The notes under the pieces are model-generated. The model searched no databases and had not been told where the DNA came from. It saw only the letters and a program-made list of their open reading frames with translations. Below are positions 1,060 through 10,877 of a DNA stretch of 10,888 nucleotides, piece by piece. Every line of letters starts with the position of its first letter. Within the stretch, counting starts at the first letter, position 1. The stretch is from Candidatus Hodarchaeota archaeon. GTDB lineage: Archaea > Asgardarchaeota > Lokiarchaeia > Sigyniarchaeales > SOKP01. Position numbers and translations under genes: made by a program. The stretch lies in assembly GCA_048887225.1 (NCBI GenBank), contig JBHLJY010000041.1:1-10888 (forward strand), written 5' to 3'.

Positions 1060-2082
1060 TTATTTATCTACTTCAGAAATTTTTACAGGACGATTCTCTT
1101 TAAATGATTTTTGGGCTGCTATTGCTACTAATACATTTTGTAAACCATCTTCCCCGCTGGGAATAGGATCCTGGTTATTTTTAAGGCAATTAAAGAAGGA
1201 TTTTAATTCAGTTGCGTATGATTCCATATATCTTTCCAAGAAAAAGTAAGGAATCTTGTCTATATTTGTACATTCTGCTGTATAAAGTCGAACAGTATTA
1301 GTAGCCTCGTTATCTGCCATTACACATCCTTTCGATCCAAATACTTCAACACGTTGATCATATCCATAGACAGCTTGACGGGTATTATCAATTATTCCTA
1401 TAGCTCCATTTTTAAATTTCAAAATTGCTACGGCAGTGTCAATATCTCCAACTTTACCGATTTCAGGATCAATAAGCACCGCACCACTAGCATAAACTTC
1501 CACCACCTCGCTTTTAGCTAGGTATCGAGCCATATCCCAATCGTGAATTGTCATATCTACAAAAATCCCCCCTGAAACTTTAATATATTCTATTGGCGGG
1601 GGAGTGGGATCGCGAGACGTAATTTTAATAATCTGAGGAGTGCCAATTTGTCCAGATGAAACAGCTTCATGAACTCGCATGAAATTTCGATCAAATCGTC
1701 GATTGAATCCCACCATTAATTTAATACCTTCTTTTTTGACAATTTTAAGCGTTTCTCTCATCCTTTTCAAGTCCGTATTAATTGGTTTTTCACAAAAAAC
1801 ATGCTTTTTTGCAATTGCAGCTTCCTGAATGAATTTAGTATGGGTATCCGTAGAAGAAGCGATGATGATTGCGACAATTTCTGGATCAGTAAAGATTTCA
1901 GTTGCGTCTGTAATAAGTTGTGGTACTCCCATGTCATCAGCCCACTGTTTCAATTGATTATTTACATTAATATCAGCTACGGTTTTTAATTTCACATTAG
2001 GTACTTTACGCAATAGATTTTCAATATGTATTTTACCGATTCTACCAGCACCTATTACACCAACAATGATATTTTTTGACAT
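1060..2082 (-). CDS. iolG: myo-inositol 2-dehydrogenase (Gfo/Idh/MocA family)
   Basis: Rossmann motif VGVIGAGRIGKIH, HVFCEKP, GFNRRFD, ITSRDP, SGGIFVDMTIHDWD, YGYDQRVEVFGSKG and FFLERY, all typical of IolG. A purine-rich GGGAGAG lies upstream on the minus strand (2088-2094). Confidence 0.93.
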   Translation of the reverse strand: MSKNIIVGVIGAGRIGKIHIENLLRKVPNVKLKTVADINVNNQLKQWADDMGVPQLITDATEIFTDPEIVAIIIASSTDTHTKFIQEAAIAKKHVFCEKPINTDLKRMRETLKIVKKEGIKLMVGFNRRFDRNFMRVHEAVSSGQIGTPQIIKITSRDPTPPPIEYIKVSGGIFVDMTIHDWDMARYLAKSEVVEVYASGAVLIDPEIGKVGDIDTAVAILKFKNGAIGIIDNTRQAVYGYDQRVEVFGSKGCVMADNEATNTVRLYTAECTNIDKIPYFFLERYMESYATELKSFFNCLKNNQDPIPSGEDGLQNVLVAIAAQKSFKENRPVKISEVDK

Positions 2083-2237
2083 AATTTCTCTCCCAATTAA
2101 TTATTATTTGCTTTTATATATTTTATGATATATTTTATTAGATATCTATATATAGTAACAACTTGAAATAGTATTATTTATTAAATAAAAAACAATTTAA
2201 AATCAATAAAAAAAAAATCTTAGAGGGAATAAATCTT
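2083..2237. promoter_or_regulatory. Divergent promoter region between iolG and the GPH transporter
   Basis: 155-bp very AT-rich intergenic region between divergent starts, with TATA-like elements (TTTTATATA 2112-2120, TATATATA about 2147-2154). The functional boxes cannot be assigned from sequence alone. Confidence 0.5.
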
Positions 2238-3638
2238 ATGAATGATACAAAACCTAAGAAAGTTTCTGGACGCATGCGACTTGCATTTGCTTGTGGAGAG
2301 GTAGGTGATAACGTTGCTTTAAATGTGTTTCAATTCTTAATTTTTACCTTTTATTTTACTGTGGTTCGTCTTCCAGTTTTGTGGATTAGCCTAGGTTTTA
2401 TACTTTGGGCTATATGGAATAGTATCAATGACCCAATGATAGGTTATTTTTCCGATAAGACGCGGAGTAGGTGGGGACGTAGAGTTCCATGGATGATGGG
2501 TGCAACTATTCCATTAGCGATTGTAATAATATTGCTGTTTACACCACCCATTTATTTAAACTCTGATTTAGTAAATTTTATGTATTTATTAATTGTACTT
2601 ATTTTATTCGACTTGGTCTACACATCATTTAATTTAAATTATAATGCACTTTTTTCAGAAATGTTCGTTGAAATGGAAGATCGGAGTGCGACTGGAAAAA
2701 TCCGTATAACTTTCGTAATGCTAGCGACAATTTTAGCCTTTGTTTTACCAACGCTTATTATTGAAGATTTGACAAACAGATATAATTATCCTTATACATT
2801 GAGTCAATATCAAATGACTGGAGTTATAGCTGCAATTATAATTATTGTGTCGTATTTCATTATCCTGAAATGGGGTGTTCGTGAACCTAAGGAATTCTCA
2901 AAAGACGCTGAAACAGCAATGTCTTTTAAAAACACAATAAAACATTCTTTCAAAAACAAATCATTTTTATGGTTTTTGCTCCCAGCTCTTGGCACATGGA
3001 TGGTCATAGGCATATTGCCAGCATTAGCTCCCTTACATATGACATATGCAGTTAAGATAGAAGATTCAGAGTTAATTGGACTTATCCTTCTTGTGATATT
3101 TGTTTCTGCTGCGTTTTCTACCCCTTTATGGGAATATATTCGAGTAAAAAAAGGTGCTCGCATGTCTGGATTGATTGGAATTGTGGTTTGGGCTGTTCCA
3201 ATTTTATTATTTGCATTTGCAATTGGTTTTGAAATGGCTTTAATTGTGGCGATTTTCTTTGGTATAGGATTAGGAGGGGGTCTCTATTTTTATGATCAAT
3301 GCATAGCAGAGATCATTGATGAAGATGAAATCACCCATGGAACTCGACGGTCTGGTATTTACTATGCAGTGATTAATTTCCTAATCAGGATTTCAGCTAT
3401 AATTAATTTTACAATAATAGGTTTAGTTTTTTCTAGTGCCGATTGGCAAACATACGAGCCGAATCCAGGAGTAGATACCATTTTAGCACTTCGAATTCTA
3501 ATGGGTGTTTATCCTGTTATAGTTCTTGTGATTGCTTTCATTGGGTTGTATTTCTATCCTATCAAAGGAGAAAGATTATTAGAAAATCGAAAGAAACTTA
3601 CTGAATTGCATGAACAAAAAAGAATGAGACTTAAATAA
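2238..3638 (+). CDS. MFS transporter, glycoside-pentoside-hexuronide (MelB-like) family
   Basis: About 12 hydrophobic segments. GPH motifs WNSINDPMIGYFSDKTRSRWGRRVPW and AEIIDEDEITHGTRRSGIYY, plus a C-terminal YPI. Confidence 0.9.
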   Translation: MNDTKPKKVSGRMRLAFACGEVGDNVALNVFQFLIFTFYFTVVRLPVLWISLGFILWAIWNSINDPMIGYFSDKTRSRWGRRVPWMMGATIPLAIVIILLFTPPIYLNSDLVNFMYLLIVLILFDLVYTSFNLNYNALFSEMFVEMEDRSATGKIRITFVMLATILAFVLPTLIIEDLTNRYNYPYTLSQYQMTGVIAAIIIIVSYFIILKWGVREPKEFSKDAETAMSFKNTIKHSFKNKSFLWFLLPALGTWMVIGILPALAPLHMTYAVKIEDSELIGLILLVIFVSAAFSTPLWEYIRVKKGARMSGLIGIVVWAVPILLFAFAIGFEMALIVAIFFGIGLGGGLYFYDQCIAEIIDEDEITHGTRRSGIYYAVINFLIRISAIINFTIIGLVFSSADWQTYEPNPGVDTILALRILMGVYPVIVLVIAFIGLYFYPIKGERLLENRKKLTELHEQKRMRLK

Positions 3639-3736
3639 GATTATTTACAAATTTAATATTTATTTTTTTTTACTTTTCTCTTTTCAACAGTTTGTTTTAA
3701 AACAAATTTAATAAAGTTATAGATTAAAATAAATTT

Positions 3737-4951
3737 ATGAGTAAACAAAAGATACAAATTTATGGATATCGTTGGGTTGTTCTGCTATTATTTTTTTTCA
3801 CAAATGTAATTTCGCAAATTCTTTGGTCTACTTATGCACCTGTTACGTCTCATGCGATGAAATTCTATGGCGTTGATGAATTTCTCATTATTTTTTTATC
3901 ATTAGTTTTTTTAATAGTGTACATTCCCATAACATTTATAGCGACCTGGTTAATTGATAAATACGATTTTAAAATTGGAGCGGGAATTGGAGCTGCATTT
4001 ATGGGTATATTTGGATTTTTACGGTTTTTTGCTACTGATTATTTGTTTATTTTGATTTTTCAAATAGGAATAGCTATAGCACAACCATTTCTTTTGAATA
4101 CCATAACTAAATTATCTGCTAATTGGTTTCCTGAAAGAGAACGTACCACTGCTACGGGAATTTCATTAATTGCAACCTCTATTGGGATTGCGTTAGGTAT
4201 GGTTGTTACACCGATATTGGTTGTAGGGATCAATTTTAGGAGTATGTTACTTATATATGGGATATTAGCTCTCATCTCGAGTTTACTCTTTTTGCTTTTC
4301 GCAAAAAATAAAGCACCAACACCACCTTCTATTAATTTAATAACTGATAGGGTATTAATGTTGAAAGGACTGAGAATATTGCTTTCAAACCGTAATTTCT
4401 TAATTTTAGTTGTTGTTTTTTTTCTTGTATTAGGGATTTTTAATATGATTCTTACCTATATTGAGTTAATTGTCATTCCACGAGGTTTTGACTCCATATT
4501 TGCAGGTGTAATCGGGATGGTCTTAATAATTGGTGGAATAATTGGAACTATAATAATGTCAGTTCTAAGTGATAAATTTAACAAACGAAAGATTTTAATG
4601 ATTCTGTCATTGTTCATTGCAACTGTTTCATTACTGATCTTTTCCTTTTCGTATAATGCCCTATTGTTAATAATATCTAGTTTTTGTTTCGGTTTTGGTC
4701 TAATGGGTGCAGGACCAGTAGTATTGGAATATGCTGTAGATGCCACAAAACCTGTTCCAGAAGCAAGCTCAAATGGAATATTAATGATGGTTGGAGCAAT
4801 TGGTGGAATTGTTTTAATTATTAGTTTAGGAAACGTAAAAATCTCTGGAGATTATTATCCTGCATTGATTATACAAACATTTTTACTAGCATTTTGTGTT
4901 GTTTTAGCATTTTTTGCAGAAGAGTATAAAGTTAGAGTTGACCATCTTTAA
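3737..4951 (+). CDS. MFS transporter (FLVCR/SLC49-like N-terminus), substrate unknown
   Basis: 12 TM-like segments. N-terminal YGYRWVVL, motif-A-like WLIDKYDFK and LSDKFNKRK, and KLSANWFPERERTTATG. Confidence 0.88.
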   Translation: MSKQKIQIYGYRWVVLLLFFFTNVISQILWSTYAPVTSHAMKFYGVDEFLIIFLSLVFLIVYIPITFIATWLIDKYDFKIGAGIGAAFMGIFGFLRFFATDYLFILIFQIGIAIAQPFLLNTITKLSANWFPERERTTATGISLIATSIGIALGMVVTPILVVGINFRSMLLIYGILALISSLLFLLFAKNKAPTPPSINLITDRVLMLKGLRILLSNRNFLILVVVFFLVLGIFNMILTYIELIVIPRGFDSIFAGVIGMVLIIGGIIGTIIMSVLSDKFNKRKILMILSLFIATVSLLIFSFSYNALLLIISSFCFGFGLMGAGPVVLEYAVDATKPVPEASSNGILMMVGAIGGIVLIISLGNVKISGDYYPALIIQTFLLAFCVVLAFFAEEYKVRVDHL

Positions 4952-5066
4952 TTATAATCTTTTTTTAAAAAGGTTTTTAACTTTCTTTAATGTAATTCTA
5001 CTAATAAAAGTTTAATTTATTATTATTATATAATTAAATAAATCTTAAAAAAAGATGATTTGAATA

Positions 5067-6275
5067 GTGAAAACAATTACTCTGTTTGCGAAATGGGATC
5101 CTAAACCTTCGTTTAAATTAGGTGCTAAAGATATTAGCGGTAAATTAACATATTTAGGTTCCCAAGTTTGGAAAAATCCAACTGTTAAAGTTAAAGAAAA
5201 AATCATTCCCAAAAATAAGCAAAATGAAGTTTTAATTAAAGTCAAACGATGTGGTATATGCGGTTCCGATGTTCATATGGCACAGTCTTACGATGATGGA
5301 TATATTTGTTATCCAGGTTTAACTGCGTTTCCAGTTACTCTTGGTCATGAATTTGCAGGTGAAATAGTAGAAGTGGGAATTAATGCAAGAGATAAAAGAA
5401 CAGGAAAGCCATACGAAAAAGGAGAACCTGTCACCGTCGAGGAAATGGTATGGTGCGGAGAATGTAAACCTTGTTGCGACGGGTATCCTAACCACTGTGA
5501 ACGGCTACAAGAAATAGGATTTTCTGTCGATGGTGCATATGCTGAGTATATTGCTGTTCCTGCAAGATTATGTTGGAGTTTAAAAAAATTAGAAGGAAAA
5601 TACGATGATATATTTAAAATTGGGAGTTTAGTCGAACCGACTTCAGTGGCATATAACGCTGTTATAGAGAGAGGTGGGGGAATTCGGCCAGGAGAAAACG
5701 TAGTTATTTTAGGTGGAGGACCTATTGGCTTAGCAGCTGTAAAAATATTAAAAACAGCTGGAGCAGCAGTTTGTATTGTTTCAGAACCAAATATACACAG
5801 ATCATTTTTAGCTAAAAAGATGGGTGCTGATTATGTAATTAATCCTGAAAAAGAAGATTTTGTGGAGAAAGTAAAAGAGTACACAGATAACGAAGGAGCA
5901 GCGTTATACCTTGAGGCAACAGGATTACCACACGTAGTAACTGAAGATATTCAAAATGCTATTTGGGATTGTAATGCCGTCAATAGCACTGTTGTAATTG
6001 TAGCTCGGGCAGAACAACGCATGTCTGTGTGCGGAGAATATTTCCAAGTACGAAGAGCCCGCATTATTGGCGCACAAGCTTAAATAGAACTCCTATTTAA
6101 TGTGTATGGCCACAGTGGGCACGGGAATTTTCCAAACGTTATCAGCAGTATGGCAGCAGGAATGGATCTTACTCAAATGATAACTAAAGAAATCTCTCTT
6201 GATGATGTGCCAGAAAATCTTAAATTATTACAAACTGATCGTGAAAACTGTAAAATATCAGTAAAAATTAGTTAA
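5067..6275 (+). CDS. iolM: scyllo-inosose 3-dehydrogenase (Zn-dependent MDR family), interrupted: join(5067..6077,6108..6275), 392 aa if the insert is removed
   Basis: GTG start. The N-terminus LFAKWDPKPSFKLGAKDISGKLTYLGSQVW matches my recollection of Thermotoga IolM. Zn motifs CGICGSDVH, GHE and CGECKPCCDGYPNHC, and the NAD motif GGGPIG. After the TAA at 6081-6083 the same frame continues from 6108 as GHSGHGNFPNVISSMAAGMDLTQMITKEISLDDVPENLKLLQTDRENCKISVKIS to a stop at 6273-6275, the expected IolM C-terminus. Confidence 0.9.
6078..6107 (+). other. 30-nt intervening sequence in iolM; candidate archaeal BHB/BHL-type mRNA intron
   Basis: Sequence GCTTAAATAGAACTCCTATTTAATGTGTAT. It contains an in-frame TAA and a perfect 8-bp hairpin TTAAATAG/CTATTTAA (6080-6087/6093-6100). 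With its flanks it forms a 4-bp central helix GCAC/GTGT, bulges AAG and ATG, and an exon helix TGGC/GCCA. The insertion itself is clear; splicing is inferred. Confidence 0.75.
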
Positions 6276-6426
6276 TAATGGACTTCTCTATTTTATATGA
6301 ACTCATAGGTTTTTAAAAGATTAATAAAAATTATCTAATCACAATTTTCTATAATTAGTACTTCAAGTAGATTTATTTTTTATTACGAAAGTATTTTTTT
6401 AGAGTTCTTACCTTGTTACGATTGAT

Positions 6427-6774
6427 ATGGTATTATTAAAACTTCTACAAGTTTTTCAAGATATTCAAGATTTCCCTGACGTAGACTATCCAGAAAATAA
6501 TATTTTCGACCAAATACCAGGATTCGGAAACACACTTTTCTTTATTATAATAGTTTTAATACTATGGTTTGTCGTGGCATCTTTACTAGCATTTTGGACA
6601 TATGGGGATATCAAGAAAAAACAACTAACTGGCTTTATGTATGTTCCTATTGTTTTATTTACTAGTTTTATAGGTTTAGTATTATATTTTATCGTTAGAT
6701 ACAATGAAAAGTGTGCATTAGCCTACGATGAAGAAGCTTGCCTATTAGAAGATGATACAGAAGGTAGTACATAA
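6427..6774 (+). CDS. Small membrane protein with two TM helices (PLDc_N / cardiolipin synthase N-terminal-like hairpin)
   Basis: TM1 (LFFIIIVLILWFVVASLLAFWTY), the loop GDIKKKQ and TM2 (YVPIVLFTSFIGLVLYFIVR) follow the W-x-Y-x-D...IGLxxYxxxR pattern. Both termini are acidic. Confidence 0.7.
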   Translation: MVLLKLLQVFQDIQDFPDVDYPENNIFDQIPGFGNTLFFIIIVLILWFVVASLLAFWTYGDIKKKQLTGFMYVPIVLFTSFIGLVLYFIVRYNEKCALAYDEEACLLEDDTEGST

Positions 6775-6856
6775 TGCTAAGGATAGCAAAAAGGTAAAAG
6801 ATATAATTTTTAGATCTTAATATTTAGAAATATAAAATTCTTTTTTATATCGCTTT

Positions 6857-7672
6857 TTACATAATTAATTTTAAATATTCTGAAGCTTCTCTTGCGACAT
6901 TTTCAAAGGAGGGCTTCATTATCGCTTCAATAGAACAAAAACCATTGAATCCAGCTTCCTTAAAAATATTTAAAAAAGTTCTAAAATCAAAATGACCTGT
7001 ACCTGGAGCCCGACGGTTATCATCTGCTAAGTGTAGATGGGCAACATATTGGACAATGTCTTTCATAGACTCCCAAATAAATAAAGGATCTTCTTCTAAA
7101 TAAGTGTGAAACGAATCAATTAATAATTTTAAATTGTCTGAGTCAATTATTTCTAATAATTCAATAGACTCTGAAATCGTATTATATGAATCTATTTCAA
7201 ATCGATTAATCGGCTCAAATATTAATTCTACATCATTATTCTCTGCTATTCTACAACACTCTTTTAGTGAATGGATAATATTTAATTTTTCTTTTTTAAA
7301 GCTGCTTTCAAAACTAAAGCGTCCTCTAATTAAGCCAATTATAACTTTAGATCGGGATTCATGAGCGAAATCTATATATTTCTCAATTCTCTCTATCGCT
7401 TTTATTCGCATATTTTCTTCTACATGTCCTAAAGAACAACCAAATCGGATGAATGTGCTCCCGGTTCCTAACGCAGGTATGTCCATATCATATGAATTTT
7501 TAATTTCAACAATATCTTTAACATTGATCTTCTCTGGTTCTAATAAACTAAGTTCAATACCTTTAAAATTTAGAGGTTTTAAGAATTCACATAAATATGT
7601 GAATTTTTCATTAATTTTTTCCTGATTGCTTCTGGATTCTTTCAATCCAGAAACAATGCTTAATTTCATCAT
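6857..7672 (-). CDS. iolO: Sugar phosphate isomerase/epimerase (xylose-isomerase-like TIM barrel), most similar to 5-keto-L-gluconate epimerase IolO
   Basis: IPALGTG, KAIERI, VIIGLIRGR, metal-site motifs FEPINRFE, IDSFH, HLHLADDNRRAPGTGHFDF and SIE resemble Thermotoga IolO as I recall it. Context with iolG and iolM supports the call. The start may be 7669. Confidence 0.78.
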   Translation of the reverse strand: MMKLSIVSGLKESRSNQEKINEKFTYLCEFLKPLNFKGIELSLLEPEKINVKDIVEIKNSYDMDIPALGTGSTFIRFGCSLGHVEENMRIKAIERIEKYIDFAHESRSKVIIGLIRGRFSFESSFKKEKLNIIHSLKECCRIAENNDVELIFEPINRFEIDSYNTISESIELLEIIDSDNLKLLIDSFHTYLEEDPLFIWESMKDIVQYVAHLHLADDNRRAPGTGHFDFRTFLNIFKEAGFNGFCSIEAIMKPSFENVAREASEYLKLIM

Positions 7673-7889: not shown

Positions 7890-10877
7890 ATGAATAGGAA
7901 AAGTAGAAAATTAATTGTTATTTCAATGATCTTCATCATTATAGCTTCAGCCATAAATATCAAGAAAATTTCTAATGAAAACACATCTTCCGATGAGATT
8001 GAGGTAGAAAAATCATTTAATAAGGAAAAAATAAAAGATGAACCTCTAAGTATAGAACAACCAAAAACAGCGGGTCCCTCTGGGCAGAGTTATAATTTTA
8101 CATTTAATACAACTATTTATGAGACATGGAATCGGACATGGGTTTATCCATGGAGTTTTTCTAATAGAGGCGGGGATGATTCATTTTCTTGGTTGATACA
8201 ATACGACACAGTAGGGTATTCTGTATTTTACGAGTTTAATATTACAGATCTTATAAATATGTCAGATATCGGTTTCCCTAAATTATATCCTAGTACTATT
8301 AATTTAGCTTTAGAACAATACAATGATACAGGCATATGGGAACATGTAGCATATATTAATGATGGCGCTGCAATCGGTGATGGTTATTGTAGTGGATTTA
8401 TTAATATGGAACCTTACTTACCTGGGGCTTTTAGAGTAACGTATGATTATTTTGGAAAAACAAATATTACATATTACCCTATTATGAAATTTTGGAGAAA
8501 TCCGTTTCAATCGGAAATTAGGACAGAATTCATTCCTGACACTCAAAATACACAATCAGATCTTATTAAATGGGAGTTAACCTATGAAAATTTCCTCCCA
8601 GGGTATATCTTAGGATATAGGGCGAATTTAACAATAGAAAATTTTACTTTTTTCACTTTGAGGGAAATTAAAGGTAGAAAAGGACTCTACTGGGAACCAA
8701 TTAATTATACTATGAATAATGATTTTCTTATAATAACCGAATCAGCCGAGGAATATATAATTGAGCTCCAAACACCTAATTACGTTTCAATAATCTATAA
8801 TGATAATTTAACGTGGAAAACAAATTCTAATGAACTTAATCTACATACGACCTGTAAAATGGCAGGTAATTTAACGATTCAATTTAGAGATACAAATGGG
8901 ACTATTCATGAGGATATAAAAGACCAACCTGTTGTAAAAGATCAAGAAGTATATTTCAACTATATTATGCCAAGAAATGCTACTGGTGGAATTGGATACC
9001 TTAATGTCACACTTATAAATAATTCAAAAATCCTTTTTGGTGTGAAAATAGCAGAAATAAATTTTTATAAGCAAGCGATAATTGTTGCATTTACGAATGA
9101 TACTTATGCGTTTGAACCAAGATTTTTTGTCGCTGCTTTTTATGTAGATTTTGATTATTTTATAGATCTAATTATCAACTACGGATATGATCCTGATCTT
9201 GATTTTATTGAGGTATTGAACTTAACAATGATACCTAATGCAACTATAACATATGATTTGGAAGGATATATCGGTGAATTAGATTATACGAAAATTCCTA
9301 TACCCGAGGTTGATTTTATGGTTTACTTAAAGGAGATAGATTTACGTGAGTTGCAATTACCTTCTGAAATGTATAACCTTACATTTAGAGCTTCAAAACC
9401 ATTCTATGATAGTGGCGTAAATGTTACAAAAATTAATATTTGGAAAAGACCTGTGGAAATTACAATCTCTTCAACAAATAATATTTATGCAATAGAGGAG
9501 AATTTCACGATTATAATAGACCTTTCTGTCGAGTATCCTGGATTTGGAGTTGAGAATTATCTGAGGGTGCTATCAACGGTGAATATTACATTTATAAATA
9601 ATGATACTGGTAAAATTGATATAGGCCCTATTCCATGGTGGGAACCTATTATTCAAACATTAGATATTAGCGACTCAATAAAAAATACTACGATACCAGG
9701 AACCTATATGTTAAACGTAACTTTAGATTCTGATTATTATGAAGGAACTGGTTCTTTTTTTGTTAAAATCATAAGGAAAGAGCTTGAAATTTCTGTTGGA
9801 TATTCTAGCCTAATCAAGGAGTCTATAAGCACAAATTTTACATGGATTTTAGATGAAGGAACCTTCGTAGGAAATAGAGAAAATATGACATTAGAAATTC
9901 TAGTCGATAATATAAGTACTAAAAATGTAAGTTTAAGTTTAACATCAAATTCATCAGGATATAATCTATTTTCGTTTACTCCCGGAATACATAATATAAC
10001 TTATCGTCTTATTAGTCCCTTTTATTATGCTGAAGAAACTATTGAATTTGTAGTACAAGCACTGCCTCCTCCTGGCGATGATGATGACGATGACGATGGA
10101 GATAAAGAGGAAAATATAATACTATTAATGATTATTATACTAATATTAATCGGGGTTAGTATTTTAGCAATTTTCATGGTTATTTCAAGGCATAAGGTTA
10201 AAGCTCAAAGAGAATTAGAATTTGAATTAATTGCCCTCAAAACGAAAACAGCAGCTACAGAACAAAAAATTTCTCTGATTGAAACTCAAATTTCTGAAAT
10301 CGCCTCAATCTATTGGGTATTAGTTGTACATTCAGAACAAGGAGTCACCCTTGTCGAGATTGCTGATTTTAAATTTGAAGATGTTATAGGCGAGGAACAA
10401 AAAGAACTCATAGGCAAAGGTATGCTAAGGGATTCGGCTCTTATCGGTGGATTTTTAACTGCGATACGTAATTTTAGTAGAGAAACCTCTGGTACATCTT
10501 TAGAATATCAACCTGTTTTTAATAGTCAGACAGATTATAGTACAATTGTAAATGATAATGAGGTACACAGAAGAATTTTGGAAGGAACGCATTATTTTAT
10601 GGCTTTTGTTTCTTCGAGAGGAACAATGGAAATTTCAGACGTATTGTCATTTATAAACTCGAAATTTGAGTTGGCGTATGGTGAAGCGGTTAAGAATTTT
10701 GAGGGAGCTATCAGTCCATTCAGATCATTTGAGGAAATAGTCGTTGAATATTTACATGAAGAGATAAAAGCACTACAGAAAAAATTGATTGAAGAACGTC
10801 TAGAGCTAGAACAACATGAGAGACATCTTAGGGAAGTTCAAGAAAAAATTGGGATCAAACCTAAGAAGTTAAAATAA
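7890..10877 (+). CDS. Large type I membrane glycoprotein (995 aa): beta-rich ectodomain, single TM, cytoplasmic coiled coil + longin/roadblock-like domain + coiled coil
   Basis: Basic and hydrophobic N-terminal signal. About 33 N-x-S/T sequons (hand count) before the TM. PPPG-D7 linker (10065-10097) and TM at about 10116-10187. The cytoplasmic IYWVLVVHSEQGVTLV...DSALIGGFLTAIRNFSRE...FEGAISPF segment resembles the longin-like C-terminal domains common in Asgard membrane proteins. Stop TAA at 10875-10877. Confidence 0.85.
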   Translation: MNRKSRKLIVISMIFIIIASAINIKKISNENTSSDEIEVEKSFNKEKIKDEPLSIEQPKTAGPSGQSYNFTFNTTIYETWNRTWVYPWSFSNRGGDDSFSWLIQYDTVGYSVFYEFNITDLINMSDIGFPKLYPSTINLALEQYNDTGIWEHVAYINDGAAIGDGYCSGFINMEPYLPGAFRVTYDYFGKTNITYYPIMKFWRNPFQSEIRTEFIPDTQNTQSDLIKWELTYENFLPGYILGYRANLTIENFTFFTLREIKGRKGLYWEPINYTMNNDFLIITESAEEYIIELQTPNYVSIIYNDNLTWKTNSNELNLHTTCKMAGNLTIQFRDTNGTIHEDIKDQPVVKDQEVYFNYIMPRNATGGIGYLNVTLINNSKILFGVKIAEINFYKQAIIVAFTNDTYAFEPRFFVAAFYVDFDYFIDLIINYGYDPDLDFIEVLNLTMIPNATITYDLEGYIGELDYTKIPIPEVDFMVYLKEIDLRELQLPSEMYNLTFRASKPFYDSGVNVTKINIWKRPVEITISSTNNIYAIEENFTIIIDLSVEYPGFGVENYLRVLSTVNITFINNDTGKIDIGPIPWWEPIIQTLDISDSIKNTTIPGTYMLNVTLDSDYYEGTGSFFVKIIRKELEISVGYSSLIKESISTNFTWILDEGTFVGNRENMTLEILVDNISTKNVSLSLTSNSSGYNLFSFTPGIHNITYRLISPFYYAEETIEFVVQALPPPGDDDDDDDGDKEENIILLMIIILILIGVSILAIFMVISRHKVKAQRELEFELIALKTKTAATEQKISLIETQISEIASIYWVLVVHSEQGVTLVEIADFKFEDVIGEEQKELIGKGMLRDSALIGGFLTAIRNFSRETSGTSLEYQPVFNSQTDYSTIVNDNEVHRRILEGTHYFMAFVSSRGTMEISDVLSFINSKFELAYGEAVKNFEGAISPFRSFEEIVVEYLHEEIKALQKKLIEERLELEQHERHLREVQEKIGIKPKKLK

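What the first reader, a model, noticed from the sequence alone, without database searches (positions are those of the whole stretch)
6057..6120. Candidate bulge-helix-bulge (tRNA-type) intron in the mRNA of the metabolic gene iolM
Seen in sequence: iolM reads ...RRARIIGAQ, then 30 extra nt containing TAA, then GHSGHGNFP... in the same frame. The RNA can fold as follows: exon helix UGGC(6068-6071)/GCCA(6109-6112), 3-nt bulge AUG(6106-6108), central 4-bp helix GCAC(6072-6075)/GUGU(6102-6105, one G-U), 3-nt bulge AAG(6076-6078), a C6079.U6101 mismatch, and an 8-bp stem UUAAAUAG/CUAUUUAA with a 5-nt loop. Further exon pairing GCCC(6057-6060)/GGGC(6117-6120) is possible. Established: archaeal EndA cuts after the second nucleotide of each bulge of BHB or relaxed BHL motifs, and RtcB ligates. 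Such introns are known in tRNA and rRNA and, for mRNA, mainly in crenarchaeal cbf5. Applying the rule gives cuts after 6077 and 6107, which removes exactly 30 nt and yields GCA CAA|GGC CAC (AQGH), matching IolM's recalled IVGSQGHSGHG. Structure-derived and homology-derived boundaries therefore agree. Inference: this is protein-coding mRNA splicing in a probable Asgard archaeon, which annotation would mis-call as a pseudogene. Caveat: A6076 could also pair with U6101, giving a 5-bp helix, so the motif is slightly non-canonical.
Basis: partly seen in the sequence, partly recalled or inferred. Interest (0 to 1): 0.95.

Follow-up and report, generated by a model that had tools for sequence, protein, structure and literature searches.

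The report
tRNA-type mini-intron in Asgard iolM
A 30-base insert with a stop codon splits an otherwise intact inositol-pathway gene of an Asgard archaeon. It has the RNA shape that the tRNA-splicing enzyme cuts and is conserved across species, so the mRNA is very probably spliced, which the papers I could search report in archaea only for cbf5.

Summary
Window 6078-6107 is a 30-nt insert with an in-frame TAA. It lies exactly between Q337 and G338 of a scyllo-inosose 3-dehydrogenase (IolM) whose homologs are 392 aa and uninterrupted.

The RNA folds as a bulge-helix-bulge motif. The canonical cut rule removes exactly these 30 nt.

- **Distribution:** the same insert occurs in four species-level genomes and at least three further metagenome assemblies. 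Close relatives in the same genus lack it precisely.
- **Selection:** both exons are under strong purifying selection, including the exon behind the stop. The intron is far more conserved than synonymous sites. Its hairpin shows two compensatory pair changes. Exon codon choice keeps the helices pairable only in intron-bearing alleles.
- **Other sites:** orthologs carry two further BHB introns at other positions, one of them frameshifting.
- **Same genome:** its only rtcB and its uL11 gene carry canonical BHB inserts. Two EndA paralogs are present.

No RNA data exist for this organism, so splicing itself is inferred. Pseudogene, split gene, read-through and ribosomal bypass fit poorly. Papers I could search report such mRNA introns only for crenarchaeal cbf5. 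Earlier unchecked notes of this scan report the same phenomenon in this and other Asgard genomes.

The parts
5067..6077 (+). iolM exon 1 (337 codons, GTG start; ends with the Q337 codon CAA)
   Evidence: Pfam ADH_N and ADH_zinc_N. NCBIfam IolM equivalog. Collinear with 392-aa homologs. dN/dS 0.04-0.16.
6078..6107 (+). 30-nt BHB-type intron (equivalently 6079-6108)
   Evidence: Exact 10-codon gap against homologs. Strict BHB hit with a=6077, b=6107. Conserved in 4 species and in metagenome contigs. Single copy in the genome.
6081..6083 (+). In-frame TAA stop inside the intron
   Evidence: Translation. The stop is TAA in G001 and G004 and TAG in G021, at the same codon.
6108..6275 (+). iolM exon 2 (55 codons plus stop)
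   Evidence: Same frame as exon 1. Aligned to homolog C-termini. pN about 0.09 against pS 0.7-0.9 between species. 8 synonymous and 0 nonsynonymous changes between G001 and G004.
6068..6071 (+). Helix h, 5' strand (exon 1), pairs with 6109-6112
   Evidence: 100% of cells paired in 7 sequences. Two pairs change on one side only, C-G to U-G and G-C to G-U.
6109..6112 (+). Helix h, 3' strand (exon 2)
6072..6075 (+). Central 4-bp helix H, 5' strand (exon 1), pairs with 6102-6105
   Evidence: 96% paired. A-U to G-U in three alleles. One C/A mismatch in G001.
6102..6105 (+). Central helix H, 3' strand (intron). 6102-6104 is also an in-frame GTG (ATG in G001)
6076..6078 (+). 5' bulge AAG; predicted cut after 6077
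   Evidence: Geometry. Invariant in 7 sequences.
6106..6108 (+). 3' bulge AUG; predicted cut after 6107
   Evidence: Invariant.
6080..6100 (+). Intron hairpin h' (8-bp stem 6080-6087 with 6093-6100, loop 6088-6092)
   Evidence: Two pairs changed on both sides in G021 (U-A to C-G, A-U to G-C). The loop is variable at 4 of 5 positions.
6057..6062 (+). Possible outer exon-exon helix with 6115-6120
   Evidence: In the MFE fold. 90% paired across alleles, but the innermost pair is not conserved. Weak evidence.
1060..2082 (-). iolG (inositol 2-dehydrogenase), pathway context
   Evidence: NCBIfam TIGR04380, 462 bits against cut-off 355.
6857..7672 (-). IolO-like TIM-barrel epimerase, pathway context
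   Evidence: Pfam AP_endonuc_2. NCBIfam IolO 229 bits, below the cut-off of 300.

Best explanation
Nucleotides 6078-6107 are an archaeal bulge-helix-bulge (BHB) intron inside the coding sequence of the organism's single iolM gene.

Proposed mechanism:
1. In the pre-mRNA, exon nucleotides 6068-6075 pair with exon nucleotides 6109-6112 (helix h) and with intron nucleotides 6102-6105 (helix H).
2. This presents two 3-nt bulges on opposite strands, four base pairs apart, next to an 8-bp intron hairpin.
3. The host's two-subunit splicing endonuclease (EndA) cuts after the second nucleotide of each bulge, that is after 6077 and after 6107.
4. RtcB joins the exons. This gives ...GCA CAA|GGC CAC..., which reads AQ|GH, and a 392-aa enzyme.

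Shown here: the motif, its exact agreement with the homology-defined boundaries, its conservation and covariation, selection on both exons, precise presence or absence among relatives, and the presence of the enzymes.

Inferred: the cleavage and ligation themselves.
For: 1. The boundaries from protein homology and from the BHB cut rule coincide. The chance is about 2e-6.

2. The insert sits at the same codon in four species-level genomes: G000, G001 and G004 of one genus, and G021 of another. It is also in at least three further assemblies.

3. Selection acts on both exons.
- Synonymous sites between these species are saturated (pS 0.66-0.89), yet pN is about 0.09 in both exons.
- Exon 2 of G001 and G004 differs by 8 synonymous and 0 nonsynonymous changes.

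4. The intron differs at only 3-13 of 30 nt where pS is 0.66-0.72. Variation concentrates in the loop and the unpaired position 6101.

5. Across seven sequences, 94.8% of cells pair, against 29-49% for slid controls. There are two compensatory double changes in h'. All exon changes in h and H preserve pairing. RNAalifold recovers the motif independently.

6. All 7 intron-bearing alleles have 4/4 pairable positions in h and 4/4 in H. None of 18 intron-less alleles has both.

7. Sister alleles differ only by the precise presence or absence of the 30 nt. G001 groups with G003 (support 100/99) and G004 with G008 (98/98).

8. Orthologs carry two more inserts at other sites, each with a canonical BHB whose cut rule restores the conserved protein.
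- G021: 30 nt in GICGSD|VHM, with h 8 bp and h' 10 bp.
- G017: 29 nt, frameshifting, in KRCG|ICGSD.

9. In the same genome, two other genes are split in the same way.
- The only rtcB is split at Pfam position 47 by a 29-nt frameshifting canonical BHB insert that restores GVGY|DINCG.
- uL11 has a 28-nt canonical BHB insert.

10. There are two EndA paralogs. One is closest to crenarchaeal catalytic subunits of heterotetrameric EndA. Asgard EndA is reported as the broad-specificity (alpha-beta)2 type (PMC5829648).

11. The gene is single-copy and lies in an intact iolG / transporter / iolM / iolO-like cluster.
Against: - No RNA evidence of any kind exists for this organism.
- In G000 the lowest-energy fold adds an A6076-U6101 pair, giving a 5-bp helix. 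Read literally, that would move the 5' cut by one base and shift the frame.
- The motif is slightly relaxed. There is a C/U (or C/A) mismatch at the base of h'. G001 has a C/A mismatch in H, and the Logan allele breaks one h' pair.
- All four species keep an in-frame GTG or ATG at 6102-6104. This could in principle restart translation of exon 2.
- Low intron divergence could partly reflect recent lateral transfer rather than selection, given the mosaic tract between G001 and G004.
- My structure-plus-ORF censuses found no genome-wide excess at the canonical length. Genome-wide prevalence therefore rests on individually verified cases.
Confidence: 0.85

Rival explanations
1. Split gene. The insert divides iolM into two separately translated polypeptides: 338 aa ending ...GAQA, and about 57 aa starting at the GTG or ATG at 6102. 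These would assemble into an active enzyme, with no RNA splicing.
For: An in-frame GTG (ATG in G001) at 6102-6104 is kept in all four species. The G-to-A change in G001 breaks a pair in H but keeps a start codon. Both parts are under purifying selection, which this model also predicts.
Against: - No Shine-Dalgarno-like purine run lies upstream of 6102.
- The model does not explain the exon-exon and exon-intron pairings, their pair-preserving changes or the hairpin covariation.
- The sister inserts in G021 (inside GICGSD|VHM) and G017 (29 nt, frameshift), and in rtcB and uL11, cannot work as split genes.
Confidence: 0.05
2. Pseudogene. A small palindromic insertion inactivated iolM, and the gene is decaying.
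For: An in-frame stop truncates the ORF. Gene callers report fragments.
Against: - dN/dS is 0.04-0.16 in exon 1 and similarly low behind the stop. G001 and G004 differ by 8 synonymous and 0 nonsynonymous changes in exon 2.
- No other lesion exists in any of 7 alleles.
- The insert is retained across species whose synonymous sites are saturated.
- It is single-copy and not a repeat family.
- The gene is the only iolM, in an intact pathway cluster.
Confidence: 0.02
3. Translational recoding. The ribosome either reads through the TAA or TAG and keeps 10 extra residues, or it hops over the 30 nt as in phage T4 gene 60.
For: A stop codon followed by a stable hairpin resembles the gene 60 take-off site.
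Against: - No matching take-off and landing codons flank a 30-nt gap that would keep the conserved AQ|GH.
- The 10 inserted codons show no amino-acid conservation (IELLFN against TVFLSD), while the base pairs covary.
- The conserved 4-bp helix with 3-nt bulges is unexplained by this model.
Confidence: 0.03
4. The insert is removed at the RNA level, but not by EndA and RtcB. Another nuclease and ligase, or an unknown pathway that recognises the hairpin, would do it.
For: Nothing here shows which enzyme acts. The organism's rtcB mRNA itself carries such an insert, so ligase supply is a puzzle.
Against: The geometry is exactly that of EndA substrates at every insert for which I tested the strict motif and found it: two 3-nt bulges, 4 bp apart, with cuts after the second bulge base. 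EndA paralogs are present.
Confidence: 0.05

Closest known systems
BHB intron in the cbf5 (pseudouridine synthase) pre-mRNA of Crenarchaeota (Watanabe 2002; Yoshinari 2006; Yokobori 2009, PMC2738675)
   Same: Both are short introns inside a protein-coding sequence with a bulge-helix-bulge junction. Both are thought to be cut by a hetero-oligomeric EndA. In both, presence is patchy among related species, implying gain and loss.
   Different: The lineage is different (Asgard, not Desulfurococcales or Sulfolobales). The gene is a metabolic one, not an RNA-modification gene. cbf5 in this genome is uninterrupted. The same gene family here has three different intron sites. Splicing has not been shown experimentally.
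Archaeal tRNA and rRNA BHB introns, including the many non-canonical tRNA introns of Asgard archaea (PMC11291895; bioRxiv 10.64898/2026.10.13.758758)
   Same: The motif is the same: h, 3-nt bulge, 4-bp H, 3-nt bulge, h'. The size range is the same (a 29-nt tRNA-Ala intron with an 8-bp h' occurs in this genome). The enzymes are the same.
   Different: The host RNA is an mRNA. The exon half of the motif therefore has to be built from codons, and synonymous codon choice is recruited for pairing.
Translational bypass of phage T4 gene 60
   Same: A short non-coding gap with a stop codon and a hairpin lies inside an ORF that yields one protein.
   Different: There are no matched take-off and landing codons. 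The pairing between exon and gap sequence is conserved. The mechanism proposed here is RNA cutting and ligation, not ribosome hopping.

Membership tests
Archaeal BHB (EndA-dependent) intron | [quoted passage not shown] | tested here: met
   Bulges are 6076-6078 and 6106-6108. H is 6072-6075 with 6102-6105. The rival 5th pair A6076-U6101 cannot form in G001 or G004.
Archaeal BHB (EndA-dependent) intron | Flanking helices h (exon) and h' (intron) | tested here: met
   h is 4 bp and 100% paired in 7 alleles. h' is 8 bp after one mismatch and 95% paired. The motif is slightly relaxed on the h' side.
Archaeal BHB (EndA-dependent) intron | Cuts after the second base of each bulge give a precise, functional exon junction | tested here: met
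   The rule removes 6078-6107 (30 nt) and restores AQ|GH as in 392-aa homologs.
Archaeal BHB (EndA-dependent) intron | Structure maintained in evolution (pair-preserving and compensatory changes) | tested here: met
   Two double changes and seven one-sided pair-preserving changes. 94.8% paired against 29-49% when slid. Only 4 independent lineages, so statistical power is modest.
Archaeal BHB (EndA-dependent) intron | Host encodes the splicing endonuclease and the RtcB ligase | tested here: met
   Two EndA paralogs. One RtcB, itself interrupted by a BHB insert.
Archaeal BHB (EndA-dependent) intron | Excision observed in RNA (spliced junction, circular or linear intron) | not testable with these tools
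   No RNA run holds the sequence.
IolM (scyllo-inosose 3-dehydrogenase, NCBIfam NF041097) | Score above the curated equivalog cut-off | tested here: met
   476.5 bits against 450, over profile positions 1-386 of 389, with the insert read through.
Pseudogene | Relaxed selection (dN/dS near 1) and accumulating lesions | tested here: not met
   dN/dS is 0.04-0.24. No further stop or frameshift occurs in 7 alleles.
Gene 60-type translational bypass | Identical take-off and landing codons flanking the gap | tested here: not met
   CAA (6075-6077) against TAT (6105-6107). No pair of identical codons gives the conserved AQ|GH product.
Repeated mobile element (MITE-like palindrome) | Multiple copies in the genome, target-site duplication | tested here: not met
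   blastn-short finds only chance 12-13-mers elsewhere. No flanking direct repeat beyond one G.

The most novel reading that the evidence does not exclude
This Asgard family would run a genome-wide mRNA splicing system based on the tRNA endonuclease.

- Mini-introns of 28-36 nt sit in many protein genes, including the ligase gene rtcB itself. That would make splicing capacity self-dependent.
- The introns are gained and lost at the DNA level and move between species by homologous recombination together with short exon flanks.
- Two observations point this way. One is the roughly 250-nt tract that is 95-96% identical around the intron in G001 and G004. The other is that sister alleles differ only by the precise presence or absence of the intron.
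Probability: 0.45. Interest if true: 0.92.

Novelty: new member of a known kind. Interest (0 to 1): 0.8.

Why it matters
In the papers I could search, splicing of an archaeal coding sequence by the tRNA endonuclease is documented only for cbf5 of Crenarchaeota.

This case differs in several ways. [quoted passage not shown] The same gene family has three intron sites. The genome's rtcB and uL11 genes are interrupted in the same way.

If confirmed, four consequences follow:
- Asgard archaea routinely interrupt protein genes with introns that are removed by proteins, not by ribozymes.
- Automatic annotation mis-calls such genes as fragments or pseudogenes, which distorts metabolic reconstructions.
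- Codon choice in these genes is constrained by RNA structure.
- Intron gain, loss and lateral spread can be studied in a simple system, which bears on how intron-rich genes arose.

Tried and rejected
**RNA evidence.** No RNA holder was listed for window 5700-6275. Only DNA contigs could be laid.

**Genome-wide census.** I scanned both strands for strict BHB geometry and asked whether removing the predicted intron merges two open frames. Decoy lengths of +-1 and +-2 nt served as controls. Counts at the canonical length equalled the decoys, for example 4974 against 4736-4944, and 13 against 15-18 for the strongest motifs. Adding a codon-usage score and a filter for no start codon did not help. 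The background comes from adjacent operon genes and open antisense frames, which swamp the signal. The census therefore says nothing either way. It did recover iolM and rtcB.

**ARAGORN tRNA introns.** I compared them with my strict BHB hits. ARAGORN's boundaries in these multi-intron tRNA genes are too unreliable. Only tRNA-Ala(UGC) matched.

**Leads from earlier notes.** Pfam searches for interrupted thiolase and PfkB kinase genes did not locate them. The CspA-like lead is only half confirmed. Its Pfam match lacks the N-terminus, but my strict scanner found no canonical BHB at the expected place.

**Rejected readings.**
- Assembly artefact: the insert is in independent assemblies.
- MITE-like repeat: the insert is single-copy.
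- Group I or II intron: 30 nt is far too small.
- DNA-level excision: no joined form appears in DNA contigs.

Full report
**What is in the sequence**

The window is a whole 10.9-kb contig (C41) of a 3.27-Mb genome with 30% G+C, scored 98% complete. An ORF starts at 5067 and stops at a TAA at 6081-6083. The same frame reopens and runs from 6108 to the stop at 6273-6275.

Read through, the product is 402 aa. It matches the NCBIfam equivalog for scyllo-inosose 3-dehydrogenase (IolM) above its curated cut-off, 476.5 bits against 450.

About 3,400 database homologs were found. The best are 391-395 aa and are named scyllo-inosose 3-dehydrogenase of Promethearchaeota, Lokiarchaeia or Hodarchaeota. 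An alignment with twelve of them has a single gap of exactly ten residues, between Q337 and the next G. The extra DNA is therefore 6078-6107. The range 6079-6108 gives the same product.

The neighbours are iolG, two MFS-type transporters and an IolO-like epimerase. The gene thus sits in an otherwise intact Thermotoga-type inositol cluster. It is the only copy in the genome.

**The RNA motif**

- Exon bases 6068-6071 pair with exon bases 6109-6112 (helix h).
- Exon bases 6072-6075 pair with intron bases 6102-6105 (helix H).
- The intron forms an 8-bp hairpin, 6080-6087 with 6093-6100.
- 6076-6078 and 6106-6108 are left as 3-nt bulges on opposite strands.

My own scanner encodes the canonical geometry: a 4-bp H, 3-nt bulges, and cuts after the second bulge base. 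It reports a hit with the exon ending at 6077 and the intron ending at 6107. A motif of this strength and length occurs 7 times in 6.54 million positions. Its coincidence with one of the two boundaries allowed by homology is therefore a roughly 2e-6 event.

There is one caveat. The minimum-energy fold of this allele adds an A6076-U6101 pair, and a 5-bp helix read literally would shift the 5' cut by one base.

**The insert is real and old**

Independent JGI, Logan and ENA contigs carry it. So do contigs from two further sequencing studies, without any indel.

I searched 60 related genomes.
- The same 30-nt insert lies at the same codon in G001 and G004 (same genus, 83-84% protein identity) and in G021 (another genus).
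- G003 and G008 of the same genus, and the other 15 full-length orthologs compared (18 intron-less alleles at this site in all), lack it precisely.
- Once the inserts are removed, all 25 sequences translate to 392-394 aa, apart from one contig-truncated copy.

**Selection**

Between the four intron-bearing species, synonymous sites are saturated (pS 0.66-0.89). Yet pN is only about 0.09 in both exons, and dN/dS in exon 1 is 0.04-0.07.

Within the G000 species cluster, dN/dS is 0.11-0.24. Exon 2 of G001 and G004 differs by eight synonymous and no nonsynonymous changes. The part of the gene behind the stop codon has therefore been kept as protein-coding sequence in intron-bearing alleles. This excludes a pseudogene.

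The intron itself differs at only 3-13 of 30 positions, where neutral sites differ at 66-72%. Four of five loop positions vary, and so does the unpaired position 6101. The bulges, the first two intron bases and three of four H bases are invariant.

**Covariation**

I counted pairs on the seven-sequence alignment with the canonical structure.
- 94.8% of cells pair, against 29-49% when the partners are slid.
- Helix h is 100% paired and H is 96% paired.
- In G021, two hairpin pairs changed on both sides, U-A to C-G and A-U to G-C.
- Every change in the exon strands of h and H is pair-preserving, and all but one (A6066G, Ile to Val) are synonymous.

RNAalifold recovers the same architecture on its own.

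Position 6101 is A in G001 and G004.

Codon choice points the same way. All seven intron-bearing alleles have 4/4 pairable positions in h and 4/4 in H. None of 18 intron-less alleles has both. The sister alleles G003 and G008 score 1/4 and 2/4 in h.

**Gain, loss and transfer**

In the protein tree, intron-bearing alleles are not a clade. G001 is sister to the intron-less G003 (support 100/99), and G004 is sister to the intron-less G008 (98/98).

G001 and G004 are 67-88% identical over most of the gene. They are 95-96% identical in a tract of about 250 nt, from roughly 70 nt upstream of the intron to the end of the gene, with no homology downstream. Their sisters diverge in the same tract.

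So the intron-bearing 3' segment, or its intron-less counterpart, has been exchanged by recombination. The presence or absence of exactly 30 nt goes with it. Such precise polymorphism is typical of introns and not of random insertions.

**More introns in the same gene family**

- G021 has a second 30-nt insert, with a TGA, inside the zinc-site motif GICGSD|VHM. It folds into a textbook BHB: h 8 bp, H 4 bp, h' 10 bp. The cut rule restores the motif.
- G017 has a 29-nt frameshifting insert between KRCG and ICGSD. It has a canonical BHB, and the cut rule restores the frame.

**The same genome**

- The only RtcB gene is split at Pfam position 47 into two frames. The single strict BHB hit in that region removes 29 nt and restores GVGY|DINCG.
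- The uL11 gene lacks the first 20 profile positions in its ORF. A canonical 28-nt BHB, with h 7 bp and h' 8 bp, restores GPAV|GPTGINIK.
- cbf5, the classic case, is uninterrupted here.
- Two EndA paralogs are present. One is most similar to the catalytic subunits of crenarchaeal heterotetrameric enzymes. This fits the (alpha-beta)2, broad-specificity type reported for Asgard archaea (PMC5829648).

**Rival explanations**

- *Split gene.* An in-frame GTG or ATG at 6102 is kept in all four species, and the G001 change keeps a start codon while breaking a pair. However, there is no ribosome-binding motif. The conserved exon-intron pairings are unexplained. The frameshifting or motif-splitting inserts elsewhere cannot work that way.
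- *Read-through.* The ten inserted codons are not conserved as amino acids.
- *Gene 60-type hopping.* No matched codons are present.
- *Repeat element.* The insert is not a repeat.

**What is missing**

No RNA run holds the sequence, so splicing is inferred.

My attempts at a structure-based genome census were uninformative, because neighbouring operon genes mimic the ORF-merging signal.

**Literature and earlier notes**

Full-text searches found mRNA BHB introns only for cbf5. I found nothing on Asgard protein genes. Recent work on Asgard introns concerns tRNA genes.

Earlier notes of this scan, which are unchecked AI notes, list similar inserts in this genome and in other Asgard genomes. Some claim RNA-derived contigs that lack the intron. 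I verified the rtcB case and one of the uL11 cases myself. The rest are leads.

**Verdict**

[quoted passage not shown] It is a new member of the kind so far represented in print by cbf5. I give 0.85 confidence that it is removed by EndA and RtcB.

Noticed in passing
G000 contig C13:33458-33486 (+), loci L004/L005: The genome's only rtcB, the ligase needed for BHB splicing, is itself interrupted by a 29-nt frameshifting insert with a canonical BHB. Removing it restores GVGY|DINCG. This raises a self-dependence puzzle.
   Followed up: partly
G000 contig C4:65567-65594 (-), locus L031: The ribosomal protein uL11 gene has a canonical 28-nt BHB insert (h 7 bp, h' 8 bp). About 36 nt of further in-frame extra sequence with two TAA stops lie upstream. 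My strict scanner did not call that second insert.
   Followed up: partly
L010 (G021:C200), codons 68/69 of iolM: A second 30-nt textbook BHB insert with a TGA splits the zinc-site motif GICGSD|VHM in the G021 ortholog, so this gene has two introns.
   Followed up: yes
L020 (G017:C50), about 770-798: A third intron site in iolM orthologs: a 29-nt frameshifting BHB insert between KRCG and ICGSD.
   Followed up: yes
L009 (G001) against L011 (G004), iolM nt about 950 to the gene end: A mosaic tract of about 250 nt around the intron is 95-96% identical, against 67-88% in the rest of the gene and no homology downstream. This suggests recombination that carries the intron. I did not check that note.
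   Followed up: partly
window 7890-10877 (+): A 995-aa ORF with no Pfam or NCBIfam match, directly downstream of the inositol genes. It is conserved in the JGI contig L001.
   Followed up: no
window 1060-7672: A Thermotoga-type inositol catabolic cluster in an Asgard genome. It comprises iolG, two MFS-type transporters, iolM, a small 115-aa membrane-like ORF and an IolO-like epimerase that scores below its cut-off. No iolN lies on this contig.
   Followed up: partly
whole genome G000: ARAGORN finds only 32 tRNA genes in a genome scored 98% complete, and 15 of them carry odd intron calls. Many tRNA genes are probably hidden by multiple non-canonical introns.
   Followed up: no
G000 contig C2:11381-11572 (-): A fifth cold-shock-domain gene matches the Pfam profile only from position 7. 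The upstream 30 nt carry TAG and TGA in frame (TGHVK ... WFDYRKGYGF). This is a likely relaxed BHB insert, but the strict scanner did not call it.
   Followed up: partly
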